Positions 26,674 through 58,114 of a stretch of 64,000 nucleotides of DNA are shown here, piece after piece; the stretch's first letter is position 1; every line of letters starts with the position of its first letter. Made by a program: the position numbers and the translations under genes. The stretch is from an uncultured Planctomycetaceae bacterium (GTDB taxonomy: Bacteria; Planctomycetota; UBA8742; UBA2392; JABWBM01), in contig CAZJPQ010000008.1 in assembly GCA_964548115.1 (NCBI GenBank), positions 17,683 through 81,682 on the forward strand, written 5' to 3'. The notes beneath the pieces are model-generated. The model did no database searches. It saw nothing but the letters and a program-made list of their open reading frames with translations, and was not told the origin of the DNA.

Positions 26674-26750
<77 letters not shown>

Positions 26751-48686: not shown

Positions 48687-48744
48687 GCCCAAACTATTGA
48701 CATGTCTTACAGGTCTCATAAGTGTGGGCTTCGTGAATAAGGTG

Positions 48745-48831
48745 TGGTGCCGAGAGAGGGACTTGAACCCTCACCCACGAGTGTGGACTAGGACCTGAAC
48801 CTAGCGCGTCTACCAATTCCGCCACCTCGGC
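48745..48831 (-). tRNA. tRNA-Leu (CAG)
   Basis: Reverse complement GCCGAGGTGGCGGAATTGGTAGACGCGCTAGGTTCAGGTCCTAGTCCACACTCGTGGGTGAGGGTTCAAGTCCCTCTCTCGGCACCA: long variable arm, anticodon CAG, encoded CCA. Confidence 0.97.
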
Positions 48832-52198: not shown

Positions 52199-52471
52199 AA
52201 GGTCAGCCTTAGGAGTGGACCTTTTTAGCCCTTGATTGTGAAAAGTTATAAAAATAATCGATAAGTCTATAGAATTGTATTCTTTTGTTCAAAGGTTAAA
52301 GGGGTAAGAAAAAACCTATAAAGTTTTTGGGTTTTTCTATCAGCATATATTGAGAGTCTAGGGGTGATAATTTTTGGCTAGTAATTGAGCTTTTGCTCTT
52401 TTCTTGGTACAATGACTCTCTTTAGGTTAAAGAATGTTGAACGTATGTATAGAGTGCTATAAAGGTGTTTC

Positions 52472-54190
52472 ATGTCTGCTAAAGATCTTCCAGCAATTGT
52501 TCAATCAGATTTAAATATTTTACTTGAAGTAGATAGCCCCCTTTATACCGATGCTCGTGATGCTTTGGCTGCTTTTGCTGAACTCGTAAAGTCACCAGAG
52601 CATATTCATACCTATTGCATCAGTCCTCTTTCTCTTTGGAATGCAGCAGCAGCAGGGCTTTCTGTTGATGAGGTTTGTTTAGCCCTTGAGCGCTATAGCC
52701 GCTATGAGATTCCAGAAAATGTTCTGAGTGAAATCCAGGAGCTGATGGCTCGGTATGGAAAGCTTCAGCTGATTAAGGATGAGAAAAGTGGAGAGCTCAG
52801 TCTTCAAAGTGATGATCCAATGCTTTTTCTTGAATTGCTTCACCATAAAGAGATAGCCCCCCTTCTTGGAGTCCAAAAAGGAGATCGTTCTTGTGAAATA
52901 GATAAAAGCCAGCGGGGGGTACTCAAGCAGGCTTTAATTCAATTTGGCTATCCAGCGCAAGACTTGGCCGGTTATACAAAAGGTGAACCTTTAGAGGTTC
53001 GCATCAACAGCCATACGACGAGCACGAAAGAGAGCTTTCAGTTGAGGGATTATCAGCAGGCAGCAGCGGATGTTTTTTATGCTTCTGGTGGAGTTTATGG
53101 TGGTTCTGGAACTATTGTTTTACCTTGTGGAGCAGGCAAGACATTGGTTGGAATTGCCTGCATGGCAAATGTTCAAGCCAATACTTTAATTTTAGTGCCA
53201 AATATTGTTGCAGCACGTCAGTGGCGCCGGGAACTTCTTGAGCGTACGAACTTAAGTCCTGAACAAATCGGCGAATATTCTGGTGAAACGAAAGAAATTA
53301 AGCCAGTTACTATTGCGACATACCAGGTTTTGATTCATCGAAAATCAAAGAACCAGGCTTATCAGCATTTCCACCTTTTGGATAACCCACGCTGGGGGTT
53401 TATTGTTTATGATGAGGTTCACTTACTCCCAGCTCCCGTTTTTCGGGTGACAGCAGAGCTTCAAGCTCGTCGTCGCCTGGGTTTAACTGCGACTCTTGTT
53501 CGAGAGGATGGGCTTGAAAGTGATGTTTTTGCTTTAATTGGACCTAAAAAATACGAAGTCCCATGGAAGATTTTAGAAAAAGCAGGTTGGATCGCCCCAG
53601 CCCAATGCACCGAAATTCGTACACCTTTGCCTGATAACCTTCGCATGAAGTATGCTGTGGCAAATGATCGAGAAAAATTTCGAATTGCAAGTGAGAATCC
53701 TGATAAGGAAAAGCTGATTGAAGCTTTACTGGCATTTCATAAAGACGACCAAGTGCTTATTATCGGACAATATCTCGAACAGCTTGATAGTCTCGCAAAG
53801 CGTTTCGATATTCCTTTGATTGTTGGGAAGACTTCTACAAAGGTTCGTGAAAAATTATACCAGAAGTTCAGGCAAGGAGAAATCTCTAAGCTTATTTTAA
53901 GTCGTGTTGGAAACTTTGCTGTTGATTTACCGAGTGCAGCTGTCCTGATCCAGGTTAGTGGGGTATTTGGCTCTCGACAAGAAGAAGCTCAGCGACTTGG
54001 ACGTATTGTTCGGCCTCAGGAAGATAAAGAACTCGCAGCATTTTATTCATTAGTTTCGCGAGACACAAAAGAGCAAAACTTTGCTTCAAACCGCCAGCTT
54101 TTTCTTGTTGAACAGGGGTATCGCTATAACATCATGTCCTCCTCTGATGTCTTTGATGGAAGTTTTGAGAAGTTCCATATCGATCCTTAA
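52472..54190 (+). CDS. xpb: XPB/Rad25/Ssl2-family DNA helicase
   Basis: N-terminal domain KSPEHIHTY.ISPLSLWNA, Q motif LRDYQ, Walker A LPCGAGKT, DEVH, RED motif (TLVREDG), QRLGRIVRP. Confidence 0.95.
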   Translation: MSAKDLPAIVQSDLNILLEVDSPLYTDARDALAAFAELVKSPEHIHTYCISPLSLWNAAAAGLSVDEVCLALERYSRYEIPENVLSEIQELMARYGKLQLIKDEKSGELSLQSDDPMLFLELLHHKEIAPLLGVQKGDRSCEIDKSQRGVLKQALIQFGYPAQDLAGYTKGEPLEVRINSHTTSTKESFQLRDYQQAAADVFYASGGVYGGSGTIVLPCGAGKTLVGIACMANVQANTLILVPNIVAARQWRRELLERTNLSPEQIGEYSGETKEIKPVTIATYQVLIHRKSKNQAYQHFHLLDNPRWGFIVYDEVHLLPAPVFRVTAELQARRRLGLTATLVREDGLESDVFALIGPKKYEVPWKILEKAGWIAPAQCTEIRTPLPDNLRMKYAVANDREKFRIASENPDKEKLIEALLAFHKDDQVLIIGQYLEQLDSLAKRFDIPLIVGKTSTKVREKLYQKFRQGEISKLILSRVGNFAVDLPSAAVLIQVSGVFGSRQEEAQRLGRIVRPQEDKELAAFYSLVSRDTKEQNFASNRQLFLVEQGYRYNIMSSSDVFDGSFEKFHIDP

Positions 54191-54267
54191 GGGACTTGAT
54201 AAACGAAAAGGAGTTTTATGATGATTGAAGAAAGTGTTAAGAGGAAAGTTGTGAAGGGTAAGTAATT

Positions 54268-54480
54268 ATGAAACTTCATAAACATTTAGGTGTTATTCAA
54301 GCTCTTGATGAGACTGTTTTAAAAGAAGTGCTTTCTATGAGTGCGTTGCAACACAAGGTGCTTGGCTATTTAGCCCCAAATATTGCGGTCTTGGAGCGAG
54401 AGGATGCTGTAGAAGCAACGCGAGTTTTGAAGGAAAGTAACATTCACCCGAGAGTCATTGGTCTTCGTAATAGAAGCTGA
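54268..54480 (+). CDS. 70-aa protein with a p8/Tfb5-like beta-alpha-beta-beta-alpha pattern
   Basis: ATG start, protein-like composition, lies between xpb and its associated gene. The fold call is an inference from hydrophobic pattern. Confidence 0.7.
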   Translation: MKLHKHLGVIQALDETVLKEVLSMSALQHKVLGYLAPNIAVLEREDAVEATRVLKESNIHPRVIGLRNRS

Positions 54481-54605
54481 CTTTGTCCTCTTGTTCAAAA
54501 CGACCAAGCTGTTTTGAAAGGAGATGAAATCTCAAAACATAAGAGTAGATATTTCTCAAGCCAGTTTAACTTGCTTAAAGATAACGTAAGGGAGAAGAGT
54601 TCATA

Positions 54606-56714
54606 GTGAAGCCCTCTTCCCAAATTCAAAAGATAAAGAAAAAAAAAGGACAAGATATTCTTCCTCAAGGATTTACCTTGAGAGAACTTGATCTGCTCTT
54701 TATTCGTATACTTCTTCTTGTTCGTAAACATCCATTAAAGTTGCTTAAAAATGGGAATCTTCCCCGCTCTGCCTTAAAGAAATTCGAATCTTTATTTGGA
54801 GAATTTTCTTTCTTAGAGCAAATCACCCATGACCTTTTCAGTCGTTTTGTTATAGAAACATTGTTATCTTTAGGACTTCTCCAAAAACCAAAAGGACAAC
54901 TTGAGCTTTGCTATCCAGCTTGCCAAGATTTTTTTAACCTTGCTCCAGAGCCACGTTTAAAGTGTTTGCGTAAAAATTGGCTTGAAGCTGGGTTTGACTT
55001 CGAGCGTTTTTATTTGCGTACGTACTATTTGAAACAGGTTCCAGAGGCTGAAAAAAGAAGAAGTTCTCAAATCTTTGATATAGTAATGGAGCTATGGAAT
55101 CCTGGGGTGAATGAAATTGTTGGAGCTCGGAAGCAAGTTCTCAGTGCATTAGAAGAATTAGCTCAAGATGAGGTCCTTTCTTTTGAAGAATTAAAACGCA
55201 AACTTTTGAAGCAGAATCCTGATTTTTTTCTTCCTCCAAGAAAGGTTTTTTATGCTCTTCGCAAGAAAGTAGAAAATCTTAGGGGAGTAAAAAACAAGGA
55301 AATACCCGACAACGATAGACTTTGTTCTTCTCTTCAAGATAGTTTGCTTTACTCCTATCTCCGCTTGCCACTTTTCTTTTATGCTTTTGTAGAACATGTT
55401 TCTGATGCTGAAAAAGAGATTTTTATCAGGCCTCGTCAGGAAAAAGAACCAGAACCTATAGATGCTTCTAGGCCATCATTTATTGTGCAGGCAAACCATG
55501 ATGTTACCGTTTTTGTTCCAGAAACAACCACAGGAGTTTTATGGCAGCTGGCAACTTTAAGCTCTTTGCAAAGTGCGAATCAAAACATATTCACATTTCG
55601 GATTGAAGAAATACGAGCTACTGAAGTTTTTAATAGAGGGTTTTCTTCGCAAAATGTTTTTGACTTCCTTATCGCTCATTCGAAAAATGACTTACCTCAG
55701 AACCTGGAGTATTCGATTCAAGAGTGGGCTCAAAATGCTGAGCGCATTATTATTTATACAGACGCAGTGCTTCTTGAGATGGAAGGTGTGGAGAGGCTTG
55801 AATCGCTTTTGGCTGAACCAAGTCAAGCTTCTATTCAACCGCTTGGAACAGAAAAGTGGTTCGTTGCTTCTTCGGATATTCCACTTGATAGATTACCTCC
55901 ACGTACCTGTATTTTTAATTATGCACAGAAGCTGCCTCCTTGTCTGATCCCTCAGGCTGATGGATCACTTATTTATAGTTATGAGGAGCAAAACTTTCGT
56001 GCCGATGCAGCGCTTCGAAGGTTTGCGGTTAAGCAATCTCTTGAAAATTGGGAGATGAGTAAGGCGAGTATACAAACGGCCATAGCGCAAGGGGGCTCGC
56101 TTCAGAATATTTTTAAAGAACTTGAGGGCTTGTGCAAAAACCCTTTGCCAGCTTTACTTTATGTGCGTTTGCTGATCTGGGGTGAAAGATTTGGCAAGGT
56201 TTCTCTCAGCTGTGAACACCTCATAAGCTTTGAAAGGGTTTCTGATGCAGAGCTTTTTCAAGAAATACCAGAACTGAAAAGTTTTTTTTCAAAGCCCTTT
56301 AACCTTAGAACATTTTTACTTGATGAGCAGAACAAGAGTGAACTCCATGAGTTTCTTAAAGCCTTAGGGCTTTCTTTTCAAGAAAACCTTTTTCAAGAGG
56401 AGTCGCGGGAATCTCTGGAAATTGTCCAACGAAAACGTGCACCTGATTTACCTTCTGCGAATTTTTCTTCTGAATATTTTTCAGCTTTATGGCAACAAGG
56501 GAAGAGTGCAGCTTTTGAGTATGCCGTAGAGCATAAAGGGAGCCTTCATCTGCTTGTTCAAGGAGCGGGGGAGCAACGTTTTCAGCGAGTACGATTAGAG
56601 GCAGAAAGTTTGCTTCAGTTTCCAGACAAGTCATATCTTGAAGGAAAGTCTCTTGATAGGGGAGGGCTGGTTTTGTTTGCCCTTGAATCAATTATGGAGG
56701 CAGATCCTTTATGA
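54606..56714 (+). CDS. XPB-associated protein: two Helicase_C_3 (p52/Tfb2 clutch-like) repeats plus a degenerate C-terminal WYL-like domain
   Basis: FIVQANHDV...FNRGFS..VFDFL..LPQNLEYSIQEW and LIPQADG...SKASIQTAIAQG...LPALL...IW; C-terminal YLEG..LDRGGLVLFALESI. Confidence 0.8.
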   Translation: MKPSSQIQKIKKKKGQDILPQGFTLRELDLLFIRILLLVRKHPLKLLKNGNLPRSALKKFESLFGEFSFLEQITHDLFSRFVIETLLSLGLLQKPKGQLELCYPACQDFFNLAPEPRLKCLRKNWLEAGFDFERFYLRTYYLKQVPEAEKRRSSQIFDIVMELWNPGVNEIVGARKQVLSALEELAQDEVLSFEELKRKLLKQNPDFFLPPRKVFYALRKKVENLRGVKNKEIPDNDRLCSSLQDSLLYSYLRLPLFFYAFVEHVSDAEKEIFIRPRQEKEPEPIDASRPSFIVQANHDVTVFVPETTTGVLWQLATLSSLQSANQNIFTFRIEEIRATEVFNRGFSSQNVFDFLIAHSKNDLPQNLEYSIQEWAQNAERIIIYTDAVLLEMEGVERLESLLAEPSQASIQPLGTEKWFVASSDIPLDRLPPRTCIFNYAQKLPPCLIPQADGSLIYSYEEQNFRADAALRRFAVKQSLENWEMSKASIQTAIAQGGSLQNIFKELEGLCKNPLPALLYVRLLIWGERFGKVSLSCEHLISFERVSDAELFQEIPELKSFFSKPFNLRTFLLDEQNKSELHEFLKALGLSFQENLFQEESRESLEIVQRKRAPDLPSANFSSEYFSALWQQGKSAAFEYAVEHKGSLHLLVQGAGEQRFQRVRLEAESLLQFPDKSYLEGKSLDRGGLVLFALESIMEADPL

Positions 56715-58114
56715 AAAATATTCTAGTTGTTGTTTTATTCTACACTATGAGCGGTCTTTATATTGCAGCATGCTCTTTACATCCTTTCTCGAAAGAGTTT
56801 AAGAATGATGATAGAGGAGAATATTTACAAGAAAGTTTAGAACAGAACCCTCACGACTTTGAGTATTATCGAAAGCTTAAAGATTTTCTGCTGTGGCAAA
56901 ACAGAGGAGAAGAAGCCCGTACAATTATGGAGTATGGGCTTGAAATGAATCCGACAAGTTACGAAGTTTTACTTATGAAAGCAGAAGTCGAGCGTTTCTT
57001 GCTTCATTTTGAAGCTGCTGAGGAAGCGCTTTTGGAAGCTCGAAAGCAAGCCCCTCAAAATACAGAAGTTTTAGATGCTTTGCTTGTCTTTAGACAGGAA
57101 ACTCTTGAGAGCCAAGAGGAGTATGAGTTGCTCCAGTATTTATTTAAGCTTGCCCAAGAGGACAAAGAAAAAGAACGCTACGGGTTATGGTTGTTGCAGT
57201 ATTACTGGAAGGCGAAGCATGATCAAGAGTTGCAAGCATTGATTTCAAACCTTAAGTCATCATCGTTTCCTGGTTGGCTTTATCGTCTGAAATTAAAGCT
57301 TCGAGAAGGCAAACTCGATGACATAGAAATTCTTAAGGAAGAGCCTGAAGTCGATAGTGAATTATACTACCAGTTTCTTTTGCGGCTTGTGCCTTTGAGC
57401 GGTGAGCCTGTTGTTTTGAATTTTTTGCAAGAGAAGTTCAAAAGTGGCCTTGAGAACTTTGATCAAGAAGAAGTGCGTTTGTTTTGTTTGTGGGGCTTGT
57501 GGGAAATTGCCTGGGTAGAAGAAGCATGGCGAGAGCATTGGGGAGTTCCTCCTGAGCACTATACATACTTGAATAGAATAGAAAAAATTCTTGGGAATGG
57601 AAATCAACGGTGGTTTGTTCGTGTTGCTATGGTTGCCGATCTTATTTTTGATCAAGAGCGAGCTTCTCAGTATCAGGAATATTTTGAAGCGACTGATTTT
57701 TCTTTTCCAAAACCTGATACTATAAAAGACTTAATGACTCTTTGGCGCTTTGAAAGCTTTTTGGAGTTAGACCTTCCTCATCAAGCTCTAGAAATACTTG
57801 AGGGTTCTCCGGAGTTGCTTGAAAGTCCAGATTTTTTACTGGTTCGAAAGCAAGTCCTTTTTCAAGCGGGGCTTTTTCAAGAATTAATCAAAGATATTGA
57901 GCAAGATCTTGAAAACAATCAAGCATCTGATTTAAGGGCAGATATTTTACTTTTGCGTTGGAATGCCCTTTGTGCTCTTGGAGAATTTGATAAGGTTCTG
58001 GGTGAAATTGAGCAAGAGCAGGAATTGGAGGAAGGGTTTCAAAAGCATCATAAAGAAGAGCAGATTTTTCTTCAACAGTTGGCTCGTTATCGACAAAAAA
58101 AGTGGGGCAGATAA
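56711..58114 (+). CDS. TPR-repeat protein with a signal peptide / possible lipobox
   Basis: IAAC; TPR-like helices (GLEMNPTSYEVLL; ARKQAPQNTEVL; ALCALGEFDKVL); 4-nt ATGA overlap with the upstream gene. Confidence 0.7.
   Translation: MKNILVVVLFYTMSGLYIAACSLHPFSKEFKNDDRGEYLQESLEQNPHDFEYYRKLKDFLLWQNRGEEARTIMEYGLEMNPTSYEVLLMKAEVERFLLHFEAAEEALLEARKQAPQNTEVLDALLVFRQETLESQEEYELLQYLFKLAQEDKEKERYGLWLLQYYWKAKHDQELQALISNLKSSSFPGWLYRLKLKLREGKLDDIEILKEEPEVDSELYYQFLLRLVPLSGEPVVLNFLQEKFKSGLENFDQEEVRLFCLWGLWEIAWVEEAWREHWGVPPEHYTYLNRIEKILGNGNQRWFVRVAMVADLIFDQERASQYQEYFEATDFSFPKPDTIKDLMTLWRFESFLELDLPHQALEILEGSPELLESPDFLLVRKQVLFQAGLFQELIKDIEQDLENNQASDLRADILLLRWNALCALGEFDKVLGEIEQEQELEEGFQKHHKEEQIFLQQLARYRQKKWGR

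What the first reader, a model, noticed from the sequence alone, without database searches (positions are those of the whole stretch)
54268..54480. Stand-alone 70-aa protein with a p8/Tfb5 (TTDA)-like pattern
Seen: MKLHKHLGVIQALDETVLKEVLSMSALQHKVLGYLAPNIAVLEREDAVEATRVLKESNIHPRV. The pattern is strand (GVIQ), Asp, helix, ALxxK, strand (VLGY), turn, strand (IAVL), helix. This tracks human p8 as I recall it (about 71 aa: KGVLIECDPAMKQFLL...[30 protein letters not shown]). The same module appears after the N-terminal domain of this XPB (LSLQSDDPMLFLELL...SCEIDKSQRGVLKQALIQFGYP) and after each repeat of the neighbouring protein. Inference: a free bacterial p8-like subunit, short enough for annotation pipelines to miss.
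Basis: partly seen in the sequence, partly recalled or inferred. Interest (0 to 1): 0.75.

Follow-up and report, generated by a model that had tools for sequence, protein, structure and literature searches.

The report
Conserved p8-like subunit beside bacterial XPB
A real, conserved 65-70-residue gene sits between a bacterial XPB helicase gene and a p52-like partner gene; its predicted fold best matches the small TFIIH subunit p8/Tfb5, so this operon may be a three-part bacterial counterpart of the XPB-p52-p8 module that drives eukaryotic DNA repair and transcription.

Summary
The 70-codon ORF at 54268-54480 (+) exists exactly as quoted. It is a real gene. Twelve homologues (38-54% identity) keep 15 invariant residues, dN/dS is about 0.1-0.4, and the protein is conserved across a GC shift from 42% to 60-67%.

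In eight lineages (window included) it lies between XPB and a PF13625 "helicase-associated" partner, usually with 4-nt stop/start overlaps.

AlphaFold2 on the family alignment gives a confident beta-alpha-beta-beta-alpha fold (pLDDT above 90 for residues 11-50). The best Foldseek matches among 350,542 PDB chains are Tfb5/p8 and p52 chains, but the E-values are only 0.2-0.4.

No sequence method links it to Tfb5 (Pfam, PDB profile search, hhalign). Profile comparison does show it is a free copy of the ~55-residue module that ends the partner protein (P=7e-6). That module matches XPB residues 110-160 (P=5e-7). The partner's other domain matches only the XPB N-terminal domain and the p52 "clutch" in the PDB.

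Best reading: a lineage-restricted, free-standing p8-like subunit of a bacterial XPB-partner complex. It is not a Pfam Tfb5 family member. Homologues are already annotated as hypothetical proteins, so pipelines do not miss it.

The parts
52385..52413 (+). Sigma-70-like promoter match (TTGAGC-17-TACAAT, with TG) upstream of XPB; a possible operon promoter
   Evidence: The number of such sites in the region does not exceed the shuffled expectation, so this is only a candidate.
52472..54190 (+). XPB helicase gene (572 aa)
   Evidence: NF045503 XPB 847 bits; PF13625, PF04851 and PF16203. 59-68% identical to XPBs of Planctomycetes, Chloroflexota and other MAGs.
52490..52780 (+). XPB N-terminal domain (aa 7-103), equivalent to human XPB residues 75-171
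   Evidence: phmmer alignment to human and yeast XPB chains. Greber 2019 (PMC6422496) shows this domain pairs with the p52 clutch.
52799..52951 (+). XPB module (aa 110-160), the start of the DRD-like region; the in-cis copy of the module
   Evidence: hhalign against the partner module alignment: Prob 92%, P 5e-7, 51 columns. Against the small-protein family: score 18.2, P 0.005, same register, reached by 1 of 200 column shuffles.
54253..54258 (+). Weak Shine-Dalgarno-like GAAGGG, 9 nt before the ATG
   Evidence: Read directly from the sequence. Weak, and not tested.
54268..54480 (+). Small gene (70 aa), the finding: a free-standing beta-alpha-beta-beta-alpha module
   Evidence: family; dN/dS; AF2 mean pLDDT 79.7; Foldseek top hits Tfb5/p8/p52; homology to the partner module.
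54606..56714 (+). Partner gene (702 aa, GTG start): about 290 aa N-terminal region, two XPB-NTD/p52-clutch-like repeats, a terminal module and a C-terminal extension
   Evidence: PF13625 twice. XPB N-terminal profile hits aa 292-390 and 447-589. The family profile's only PDB hits are the XPB N-terminal domain and the p52/Tfb2 clutch.
55479..55775 (+). Partner repeat 1 (aa 292-390), XPB-NTD/clutch-like
   Evidence: Pfam Tfb2 (PF03849) positions 244-356 give weak hits in orthologous partners.
55944..56222 (+). Partner repeat 2, NTD-like part (aa 447-539)
56223..56396 (+). Partner terminal module (aa 540-597), paralogous to the small protein; proposed docking site
   Evidence: hhalign of the small family against 7 partner modules: Prob 84%, P 7.3e-6, score 30.3 over 56 match columns. 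200 shuffles gave mean 8.9, sd 1.8, max 14.5.
56711..58114 (+). TPR protein (467 aa), fourth gene; its start overlaps the partner's stop by 4 nt
   Evidence: PF14559 TPR_19. Found in the same position in L006/L007 and L019 (tblastn E 2e-14 and 1e-6).

Best explanation
The ORF encodes a real protein of about 65 aa. It is a free-standing copy of the ~55-residue beta-alpha-beta-beta-alpha module that terminates the XPB-associated partner protein and that also follows the N-terminal domain inside XPB itself.

Shown:
- The gene is conserved and under purifying selection.
- It is kept between XPB and the partner gene.
- It is homologous to the partner's terminal module.
- Its predicted fold is best matched in the PDB by Tfb5/p8 and by p52 chains.
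- The partner's repeats are homologous to the XPB N-terminal domain and the p52 clutch.

Inferred by analogy with TFIIH:
- XPB, the small protein and the partner are made together (4-nt overlapping genes in relatives) and form one complex.
- The partner's clutch-like repeat pairs with the XPB N-terminal domain.
- The small protein forms a pseudo-symmetric dimer with the partner's terminal module, as p8 does with the p52 C-terminal domain, and leans on the second RecA lobe of XPB.
- This stabilises the complex and holds the two motor lobes in an ATPase-competent arrangement.

The family is probably a lineage-specific duplication within a Planctomycetota-related clade. That makes it a parallel of p8 rather than its orthologue.
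For: Real gene:
- Homologues at E 1.5e-12 to 4.6e-5, and 15 invariant columns in 12 sequences.
- dN/dS is 0.08-0.19 for pairs with 71-76% amino-acid identity and below 0.46 for every pair with a dS estimate. The protein is conserved although window GC is 42% and the homologous loci are 59-67.5%.

Synteny:
- XPB -> small -> PF13625 partner in the window, L006/L007, L008, L010, L011, L012/L013, L014 and L019.
- Genes overlap by 1-4 nt at five junction pairs checked in four of those loci.

Fold:
- AF2 with 12 sequences: mean pLDDT 79.7, 37 residues at 90 or above, five models agreeing at 78.3-79.7; E7-11 H15-24 E33-36 E39-43 H44-56.
- Foldseek against 350,542 PDB chains: ranks 1-3 are 5oqj_5 (yeast Tfb5), 6trs_D (Chaetomium p8; prob 0.89, TM 0.52/0.55, rmsd 2.8 A) and 3dom_B. 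Ranks 4, 9 and 13 are chain D of TFIIH/NER entries. 8ebt_D is confirmed as p52; the other two are assumed to be p52. About 15 of the top 50 come from TFIIH p8/p52 entries (chain identities).

Module homology:
- Small family against partner terminal modules: Prob 84%, P 7e-6. Without the sequence that the small-family profile had itself found: P 6e-4.
- Partner module against XPB 110-160: Prob 92%, P 5e-7.

Partner is p52-like:
- All 13 PDB hits of its profile are the XPB N-terminal domain (E 1.9e-4) or the p52/Tfb2 clutch (human p52 residues 307-404, E 0.17-0.18).
- Weak Pfam Tfb2 hits, in register, in two orthologous partners.

Literature:
- p8 and the p52 C-terminal domain share one fold, p8 binds XPB HD2, and p52/p8 stimulate the XPB ATPase (PMC7708078).
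- The p52 clutch is homologous to the XPB N-terminal domain and is followed by the p8-binding module (PMC6422496).

Charge: 9 of 12 family members have pI 4.8-6.4, like p8 (4.5) and Tfb5 (5.0). This fits an adaptor better than a DNA binder.
Against: - No sequence-level signal to Tfb5 or Tfb2_C from any method.
- No Foldseek match reaches E 1e-3. The same list holds other small alpha/beta folds (Pcc1, KH, PilQ domains, UreE) at similar scores.
- The tool does not report which part of p52 was aligned.
- The single-sequence AF2 model was all-helical, but its confidence was low (pLDDT 58).
- No structure was predicted for the partner module or for any complex, so the dimerisation step rests purely on analogy.
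- The gene is missing from many XPB loci. These include the closest XPB relative found (L005, 68% identity). They also include loci that have the partner: Sphaerochaetaceae L004 and Chloroflexota L017 and L018.
- In one locus (L009) no XPB or partner lies within the 4 kb fetched on either side.
- The invariant residues H4, H6, H60, P61 and V63 lie in the low-confidence termini of the model and are not explained by the p8 analogy.
Confidence: 0.55

Rival explanations
1. It is a trans-acting copy of the XPB DRD-like domain that binds DNA (damage, forks or bubbles) and hands substrates to XPB. It is not a p8-like structural adaptor.
For: The module it belongs to aligns to XPB 110-160. That stretch maps just after the N-terminal domain, where human XPB has its DRD-like domain (residues 165-300; with PMC6422496). 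The DRD is described there as a DNA-binding domain. The window's own copy has a basic tail and a pI of 9.3.
Against: Most family members are acidic (pI 4.8-6.4 in 9 of 12). XPB and MutS chains are absent from the top 50 Foldseek matches, while p8 and p52 lead the list. The direct similarity to the XPB module is the weakest leg of the triangle (P 0.005).
Confidence: 0.15
2. The resemblance to p8 is generic for a small two-layer alpha/beta fold. The protein has another role in the operon, for example a metal-binding or regulatory factor using the invariant H4, H6, H60 and E43, or a chaperone for the partner.
For: Foldseek E-values are 0.2-0.4, with Pcc1, KH and UreE (a metallochaperone) in the same list. 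Three invariant histidines and an invariant glutamate in a protein of about 65 aa. No sequence link to Tfb5.
Against: Homology to the partner's terminal module is significant, and that module lacks the MKxHxH and H-P-[KR]-V termini. The fold is therefore shared with an XPB/p52-type protein whatever the termini do. A top-ranked match to a known XPB-binding subunit, for a gene that sits next to XPB, is unlikely to be coincidence.
Confidence: 0.2
3. It is not a gene: a chance ORF in an intergenic spacer, or a remnant of the partner's N-terminus cut off by a frameshift.
For: Only the window has intergenic gaps (77 and 125 nt). There is no Pfam or NCBIfam hit.
Against: Conserved in more than 12 sequences with low dN/dS across a large GC shift. 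In relatives it is a separate ORF with its own start and stop, overlapping both neighbours. The partner's N-terminus aligns from residue 5 without it. The same 70-aa ORF was called independently on two other assemblies.
Confidence: 0.02

Closest known systems
TFIIH subunit p8/TTDA/Tfb5 (Pfam PF06331)
   Same: Size (65-72 aa). Predicted beta-alpha-beta-beta-alpha topology with nearly co-linear elements. Best-ranked PDB structural matches. Mostly acidic. Encoded or acting next to XPB and a clutch-containing partner. It is a free copy of a module that is also present at the end of that partner, as p8 is for the p52 C-terminal domain (PMC7708078).
   Different: No detectable sequence similarity. 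The invariant Tfb5 residues (e.g. C12, P14, the DD.H motif) are absent. The bacterial family has its own invariant set (K2, H4, H6, G8, V9, E43, H60, P61). It is bacterial and confined to a narrow clade. Binding has not been shown.
C-terminal (p8-binding) domain of p52/Tfb2 (Pfam PF18307, name recalled from memory)
   Same: Same fold as p8 (PMC7708078). It follows the clutch domain directly, just as the bacterial module follows the clutch-like repeat. p52 chains appear among the top Foldseek hits (8ebt_D identified as p52).
   Different: It is part of a larger protein rather than free. No Pfam Tfb2_C hit for the small protein or the partners. The aligned region of p52 is not reported by the tool.
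PF13625 Helicase_C_3 'helicase-associated' proteins next to bacterial XPB, and the XPB N-terminal domain plus DRD-like region
   Same: The small protein is homologous to the module that ends these proteins. That module is in turn homologous to XPB 110-160. The Pfam model covers the N-terminal domain plus roughly the first half of the module (XPB 9-133).
   Different: The small protein itself does not match PF13625. It lacks the NTD/clutch part and carries conserved N- and C-terminal extensions that the in-cis modules lack.
Archaeal XPB-Bax1 helicase-nuclease pair
   Same: A prokaryotic XPB encoded with a dedicated partner that contacts the second helicase domain (HD2) and modulates the ATPase (PMC13024598, PMC7672443).
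   Different: Bax1 is a nuclease unrelated to the clutch or p8 folds. Nothing nuclease-like was detected in this operon.

Membership tests
Tfb5/p8 (PF06331) | Significant match to the family HMM or profile | tested here: not met
   No Pfam hit for any of 12 members even at E<=10. PDB profile searches do not return Tfb5 or p8. hhalign against a human/yeast/Chaetomium Tfb5 alignment gives Prob 0.1-0.9%.
Tfb5/p8 (PF06331) | A domain of about 70 aa with the beta-alpha-beta-beta-alpha fold of p8 | tested here: inconclusive
   The AF2 model has this topology with pLDDT above 90 for residues 11-50. Tfb5/p8 chains rank 1-3 in Foldseek against the PDB, with TM 0.44-0.57 and rmsd 2.7-4.5 A, but E is 0.21-0.28 and other small alpha/beta folds score similarly. 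This is a prediction, not a solved structure.
Tfb5/p8 (PF06331) | Partner protein with a clutch domain followed by a C-terminal domain of the same fold | tested here: met
   The partner's repeats hit only the XPB N-terminal domain and the p52/Tfb2 clutch in the PDB. Its terminal module is homologous to the small protein. Equivalence of that module to the p52 C-terminal domain rests on position and predicted fold only.
Tfb5/p8 (PF06331) | Physical binding to the p52 C-terminal domain and XPB HD2; stabilisation and ATPase stimulation | not testable with these tools
   No complex prediction was available (structure jobs exhausted, single chains only). Needs AF-Multimer or biochemistry.
Tfb5/p8 (PF06331) | Conserved family residues (G7, C12, P14, K17, D24, D39-D40-x-H42 in human numbering) | tested here: not met
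   Invariant columns of the Tfb5 alignment and of the bacterial family do not coincide, apart from the G-V at the start of strand 1.
PF13625 Helicase_C_3 / XPB DRD-like module | Match to the Pfam HMM | tested here: not met
   No PF13625 hit for the small proteins.
PF13625 Helicase_C_3 / XPB DRD-like module | Profile-profile homology to the module after the NTD-like domain | tested here: met
   Against partner modules: Prob 84%, P 7e-6, about 12 sd above shuffles. Against XPB 110-160: P 0.005, same register. Partner module against XPB module: Prob 92%. The stretch after partner repeat 1 shows no match.
Known anti-phage defence systems (PADLOC) | Match to a defence-system protein model | tested here: not met
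   Only a marginal 13.6-bit hit for the small protein and generic helicase hits (PbeA) for XPB. Nothing for the partner or the TPR protein. The flanking genes are housekeeping.

The most novel reading that the evidence does not exclude
Some bacteria assemble a true three-subunit XPB / p52-like / p8-like complex built on the same two pseudo-symmetric domain pairings as the XPB-p52-p8 arm of TFIIH: N-terminal domain with clutch, and terminal module with the free small subunit. The regulatory architecture of the eukaryotic XPB motor would then either predate eukaryotes or have been invented twice by the same duplication route. Either way it would give a minimal bacterial model for how p52 and p8 control XPB.
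Probability: 0.3. Interest if true: 0.85.

Novelty: new variant of a known kind. Interest (0 to 1): 0.64.

Why it matters
The function and partners of bacterial XPB are still described as elusive (PMC13024598). An earlier study stated that homologues of p52 had not been found in bacteria (PMC3353954). In the held paper library I found nothing describing a bacterial p52-like or p8-like partner of XPB.

An operon encoding XPB, a clutch-repeat partner and a free p8-like module would make the p52/p8 control mechanism of XPB testable in a simple three-protein bacterial system. That mechanism is relevant to trichothiodystrophy group A. The operon would also bear on the origin of the TFIIH core. Finally, it gives a name and a testable role to a small 'hypothetical protein' family.

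Tried and rejected
- The word-index homology search with the 70-aa protein and with the 702-aa partner returned only the query itself. The exhaustive search was needed. Its two long hits, P0126 and P0128, are repetitive proteins and were discarded as spurious.
- Direct BLASTP of the small protein against XPB and against the partner gave nothing meaningful.
- Single-sequence AF2 gave a low-confidence all-helical model (pLDDT 58). It was superseded by the alignment-based model.
This was solved by looking up their database ids.
- Sequence links to Tfb5 were tried four ways and all failed. The enlarged module profile also finds no TFIIH protein in the PDB.
- The genome-contig scan with XPB gave only two distant loci, neither with the small gene.
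- A defence-system origin was checked and rejected.
- The promoter and terminator scan was uninformative. No plus-strand terminator-like site falls in either gap flanking the small gene.
- The idea that the module follows both partner repeats was tested and rejected for repeat 1.
- The window's organism could not be identified directly. Its nearest XPBs are from Planctomycetes MAGs, but its GC is much lower.

Full report
**1. The observation**

The ORF at 54268..54480 (+) is present as described. It has an ATG start and 70 codons, and the peptide is identical to the one quoted.

- It lies 77 nt downstream of a 572-aa XPB helicase (52472..54190). XPB is identified by NCBIfam NF045503 at 847 bits and by Pfam PF13625, PF04851 and PF16203.
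- It lies 125 nt upstream of a 702-aa protein with two PF13625 (Helicase_C_3) stretches (54606..56714).
- That protein overlaps by 4 nt a 467-aa TPR protein (56711..58114).
- No plus-strand terminator-like site falls in either gap flanking the small gene. A promoter-like site precedes XPB, but such sites are no more frequent than in shuffled sequence.
- The same 70-aa ORF is called on two other short assemblies from independent sequencing runs.

**2. Is it a gene?**

Pfam and NCBIfam find nothing, and the word-index search finds only the query itself. An exhaustive phmmer scan of 1.84 billion representatives finds four short homologues of 65-69 aa, at 39-52% identity and E 1.5e-12 to 4.6e-5. 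It also returned two long repetitive proteins, which I discard.

Looking downstream of the closest XPB homologues, and scanning metagenome contigs with the family pattern, recovered more members.

- Twelve sequences align almost without gaps. Fifteen columns are invariant: M1, K2, H4, H6, G8, V9, L18, L22, V31, L42, E43, L54, H60, P61 and V63.
- Nei-Gojobori dN/dS is 0.08-0.19 for pairs with 71-76% amino-acid identity. It is at most 0.46 for every pair where dS could be estimated. dS is above 1, so these are rough values.
- The protein is conserved although the window has 42% GC and the homologous loci have 59-67.5%.
- NCBI already annotates several members as 'hypothetical protein' in Planctomycetes/Planctomycetota MAGs. 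Annotation pipelines therefore do not miss it.

**3. Context**

The order XPB -> small gene -> PF13625 partner recurs in the window, L006/L007, L008, L010, L011, L012/L013, L014 and L019. The XPBs in these loci are 59-68% identical to the window's.

- In L006, L008, L014 and L019 the small gene overlaps both neighbours by 1-4 nt, which suggests translational coupling.
- A TPR protein follows as a fourth gene in L006/L007 and L019.
- The small gene is not universal:
  - It is absent from the closest XPB locus found (L005).
  - It is absent from loci where XPB stands alone (L003, L015, L016, and the P0063 locus).
  - It is absent from loci where XPB is followed directly by the partner: Sphaerochaetaceae L004, Chloroflexota L017 with two tandem 781-aa partners, and L018.
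- In L009 no XPB or partner lies within the 4 kb fetched on either side of the small gene.

**4. Fold**

A single-sequence AF2 run was unreliable (pLDDT 58, all helices). With the 12-sequence alignment the model is confident.

- Mean pLDDT is 79.7, with 37 residues at 90 or above. Ten-residue blocks covering residues 11-50 average 91-95. All five models score 78.3-79.7.
- The elements are E7-11, H15-24, E33-36, E39-43 and H44-56.
- From my memory of the p8 NMR and Tfb5 crystal structures, it is also the order of elements in p8.

Foldseek against 350,542 PDB chains gives no match at E <= 1e-3.

- Ranks 1-3 are yeast Tfb5 (5oqj_5), Chaetomium p8 (6trs_D; prob 0.89, TM 0.52/0.55, rmsd 2.8 A) and 3dom_B, a chain of the Tfb5-Tfb2C crystal.
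- Chain D of the TFIIH/NER entries 9pcp, 8ebu and 8ebt follows at ranks 4, 9 and 13. About 15 of the top 50 come from TFIIH p8 or p52 entries.
- Chain identities were checked. Of the three chain-D hits, only 8ebt_D is confirmed as p52; 9pcp_D and 8ebu_D are assumed.
- Pcc1, KH, PilQ-domain and UreE chains score similarly.
- Taken alone, the structural match is suggestive rather than significant. Its weight comes from the fact that the top-ranked family is a known XPB-binding subunit, and this gene sits beside XPB.

**5. Sequence relationships**

No sequence method connects the family to Tfb5.

- Pfam on all 12 members at E <= 10 finds nothing relevant.
- PDB profile searches do not return Tfb5 or p8.
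- hhalign against a human/yeast/Chaetomium Tfb5 alignment, whose sequences I verified against the PDB, gives nothing.

The family profile does hit the last 56 residues of a Chloroflexota partner protein (L017a): E 0.0074 against six-frame ORFs of at least 40 aa from the window and all loci then held, and 3.7e-4 against 127 partner and XPB sequences.

I delimited the partner's architecture with an XPB N-terminal profile. It consists of:
- about 290 N-terminal residues;
- repeat 1, XPB-NTD-like (aa 292-390 in the window);
- repeat 2 (aa 447-589), which runs on through the equivalent of XPB residues 105-160.

An alignment of seven such terminal modules matches the small family with Prob 84%, P 7.3e-6 and score 30.3 over 56 match columns. 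Two hundred column shuffles gave mean 8.9, sd 1.8 and max 14.5. Leaving out L017a still gives P 6e-4.

The same modules match XPB 110-160 with Prob 92% and P 5e-7. The small family matches XPB 110-160 weakly but in the same register (score 18.2, P 0.005, reached by 1 of 200 shuffles). The stretch after repeat 1 shows no match.

The small protein is therefore a free paralogue of the module that ends the partner and that follows the N-terminal domain in XPB. Window XPB residues 7-103 align to human XPB 75-171. The module thus begins where the human DRD-like domain (residues 165-300, PMC6422496) begins.

**6. The partner is p52-like**

The partner family profile, searched against all 177,635 distinct PDB sequences, returns 13 hits at E <= 10. 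Every one is either the XPB N-terminal domain (yeast, E 1.9e-4) or the p52/Tfb2 clutch (human p52 residues 307-404, E 0.17-0.18).

Two orthologous partners give weak Pfam Tfb2 hits over model positions 244-356, in register with repeat 1.

In TFIIH the p52 clutch is homologous to the XPB N-terminal domain and pairs with it. It is followed by the dimerisation module that binds p8 (PMC6422496). p8 and the p52 C-terminal domain share one fold. p8 also contacts XPB HD2, and p52/p8 stimulate the XPB ATPase (PMC7708078).

**7. Interpretation**

The best-supported reading is a bacterial three-part system that mirrors the XPB-p52-p8 arm of TFIIH. XPB and the partner share NTD/clutch-type domains, each followed by the module. 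A clade related to Planctomycetota has added a free copy of that module between the two genes.

By analogy, and as inference only, the free copy dimerises with the partner's terminal module and buttresses XPB RecA2, stabilising an active conformation.

- Most members are acidic, like p8 and Tfb5. This favours an adaptor over a DNA binder.
- The family is narrow. It is closer in sequence to the bacterial partner module than to anything eukaryotic. I therefore regard it as a parallel of p8 that arose by the same route, duplication of the partner's terminal module. I do not regard it as an orthologue.
- It fails the sequence-membership test for PF06331.

**8. Rivals**

- A trans-acting DRD-like DNA-binding module (probability about 0.15).
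- A generic small alpha/beta protein with another role, perhaps metal-dependent, given the invariant H4, H6, H60 and E43 in or near the termini that the model does not resolve (about 0.2).
- Not a gene (about 0.02).

**9. Novelty**

In the held library I found no description of a bacterial p52-like or p8-like partner of XPB. A 2012 study states that p52 homologues had not been found in bacteria (PMC3353954). A 2026 review calls bacterial XPB function elusive (PMC13024598).

Database models (PF13625, 'helicase-associated domain-containing protein') already cover the partner, but not the small protein. I rate this a new variant of a known kind, of moderate to high interest, resting on computational evidence that needs a complex prediction and biochemistry.

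Noticed in passing
window 54268-54480 (aa 1-6 and 60-64): The most strictly conserved residues (M1, K2, H4, H6 and H60, P61, V63, plus E43) lie largely in the N- and C-terminal stretches that AF2 leaves at low confidence. They are missing from the in-cis modules of XPB and the partner. They could form a metal site or fold only on binding.
   Followed up: partly
window 54191-54267 and 54481-54605: The window has 77-nt and 125-nt spacers around the small gene, whereas relatives have 1-4-nt overlaps. The window is also much lower in GC (42% against 59-67.5%). The spacers were not examined for RNA elements beyond the whole-window Rfam gathering scan, which found only two tRNAs.
   Followed up: partly
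window 56397-56711 (partner aa ~598-702): An extra C-terminal extension of about 105 aa after the terminal module. It is shared with the 708-aa partner of L014 but absent from the 574-589-aa partners of L006 and L019. No family match.
   Followed up: no
L009 4001-4198: A family member (53% identical to the window's) with no XPB or partner within the 4 kb fetched on either side. It lies between a Uma2 putative endonuclease gene and a GTPase (MMR_HSR1) gene.
   Followed up: partly
L017 6850-11540: A Chloroflexota locus has two tandem 781-aa partner paralogues and no small gene. The first carries an N-terminal SWIM zinc finger (PF04434). Two partners may replace 'one partner plus small subunit'.
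   Followed up: partly
L018 7859-10120: In another Chloroflexota contig the partner appears split into three called genes (163, 350 and 192 aa). The last one ends with the same terminal module. This may be a frameshifted or a genuinely split partner.
   Followed up: no
window 56711-58114; L006 8630-10147; L019 9636-11051: A poorly conserved TPR protein (21-24% identity) keeps the fourth position of the operon in three lineages. It may be a further subunit.
   Followed up: partly
window 26677-26750 and 48748-48831 (minus strand): Two tRNA genes were the only Rfam gathering-threshold matches in the 64-kb window. The 43-aa ORF at 48694-48825 is a spurious reading that overlaps the second tRNA.
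   Followed up: no
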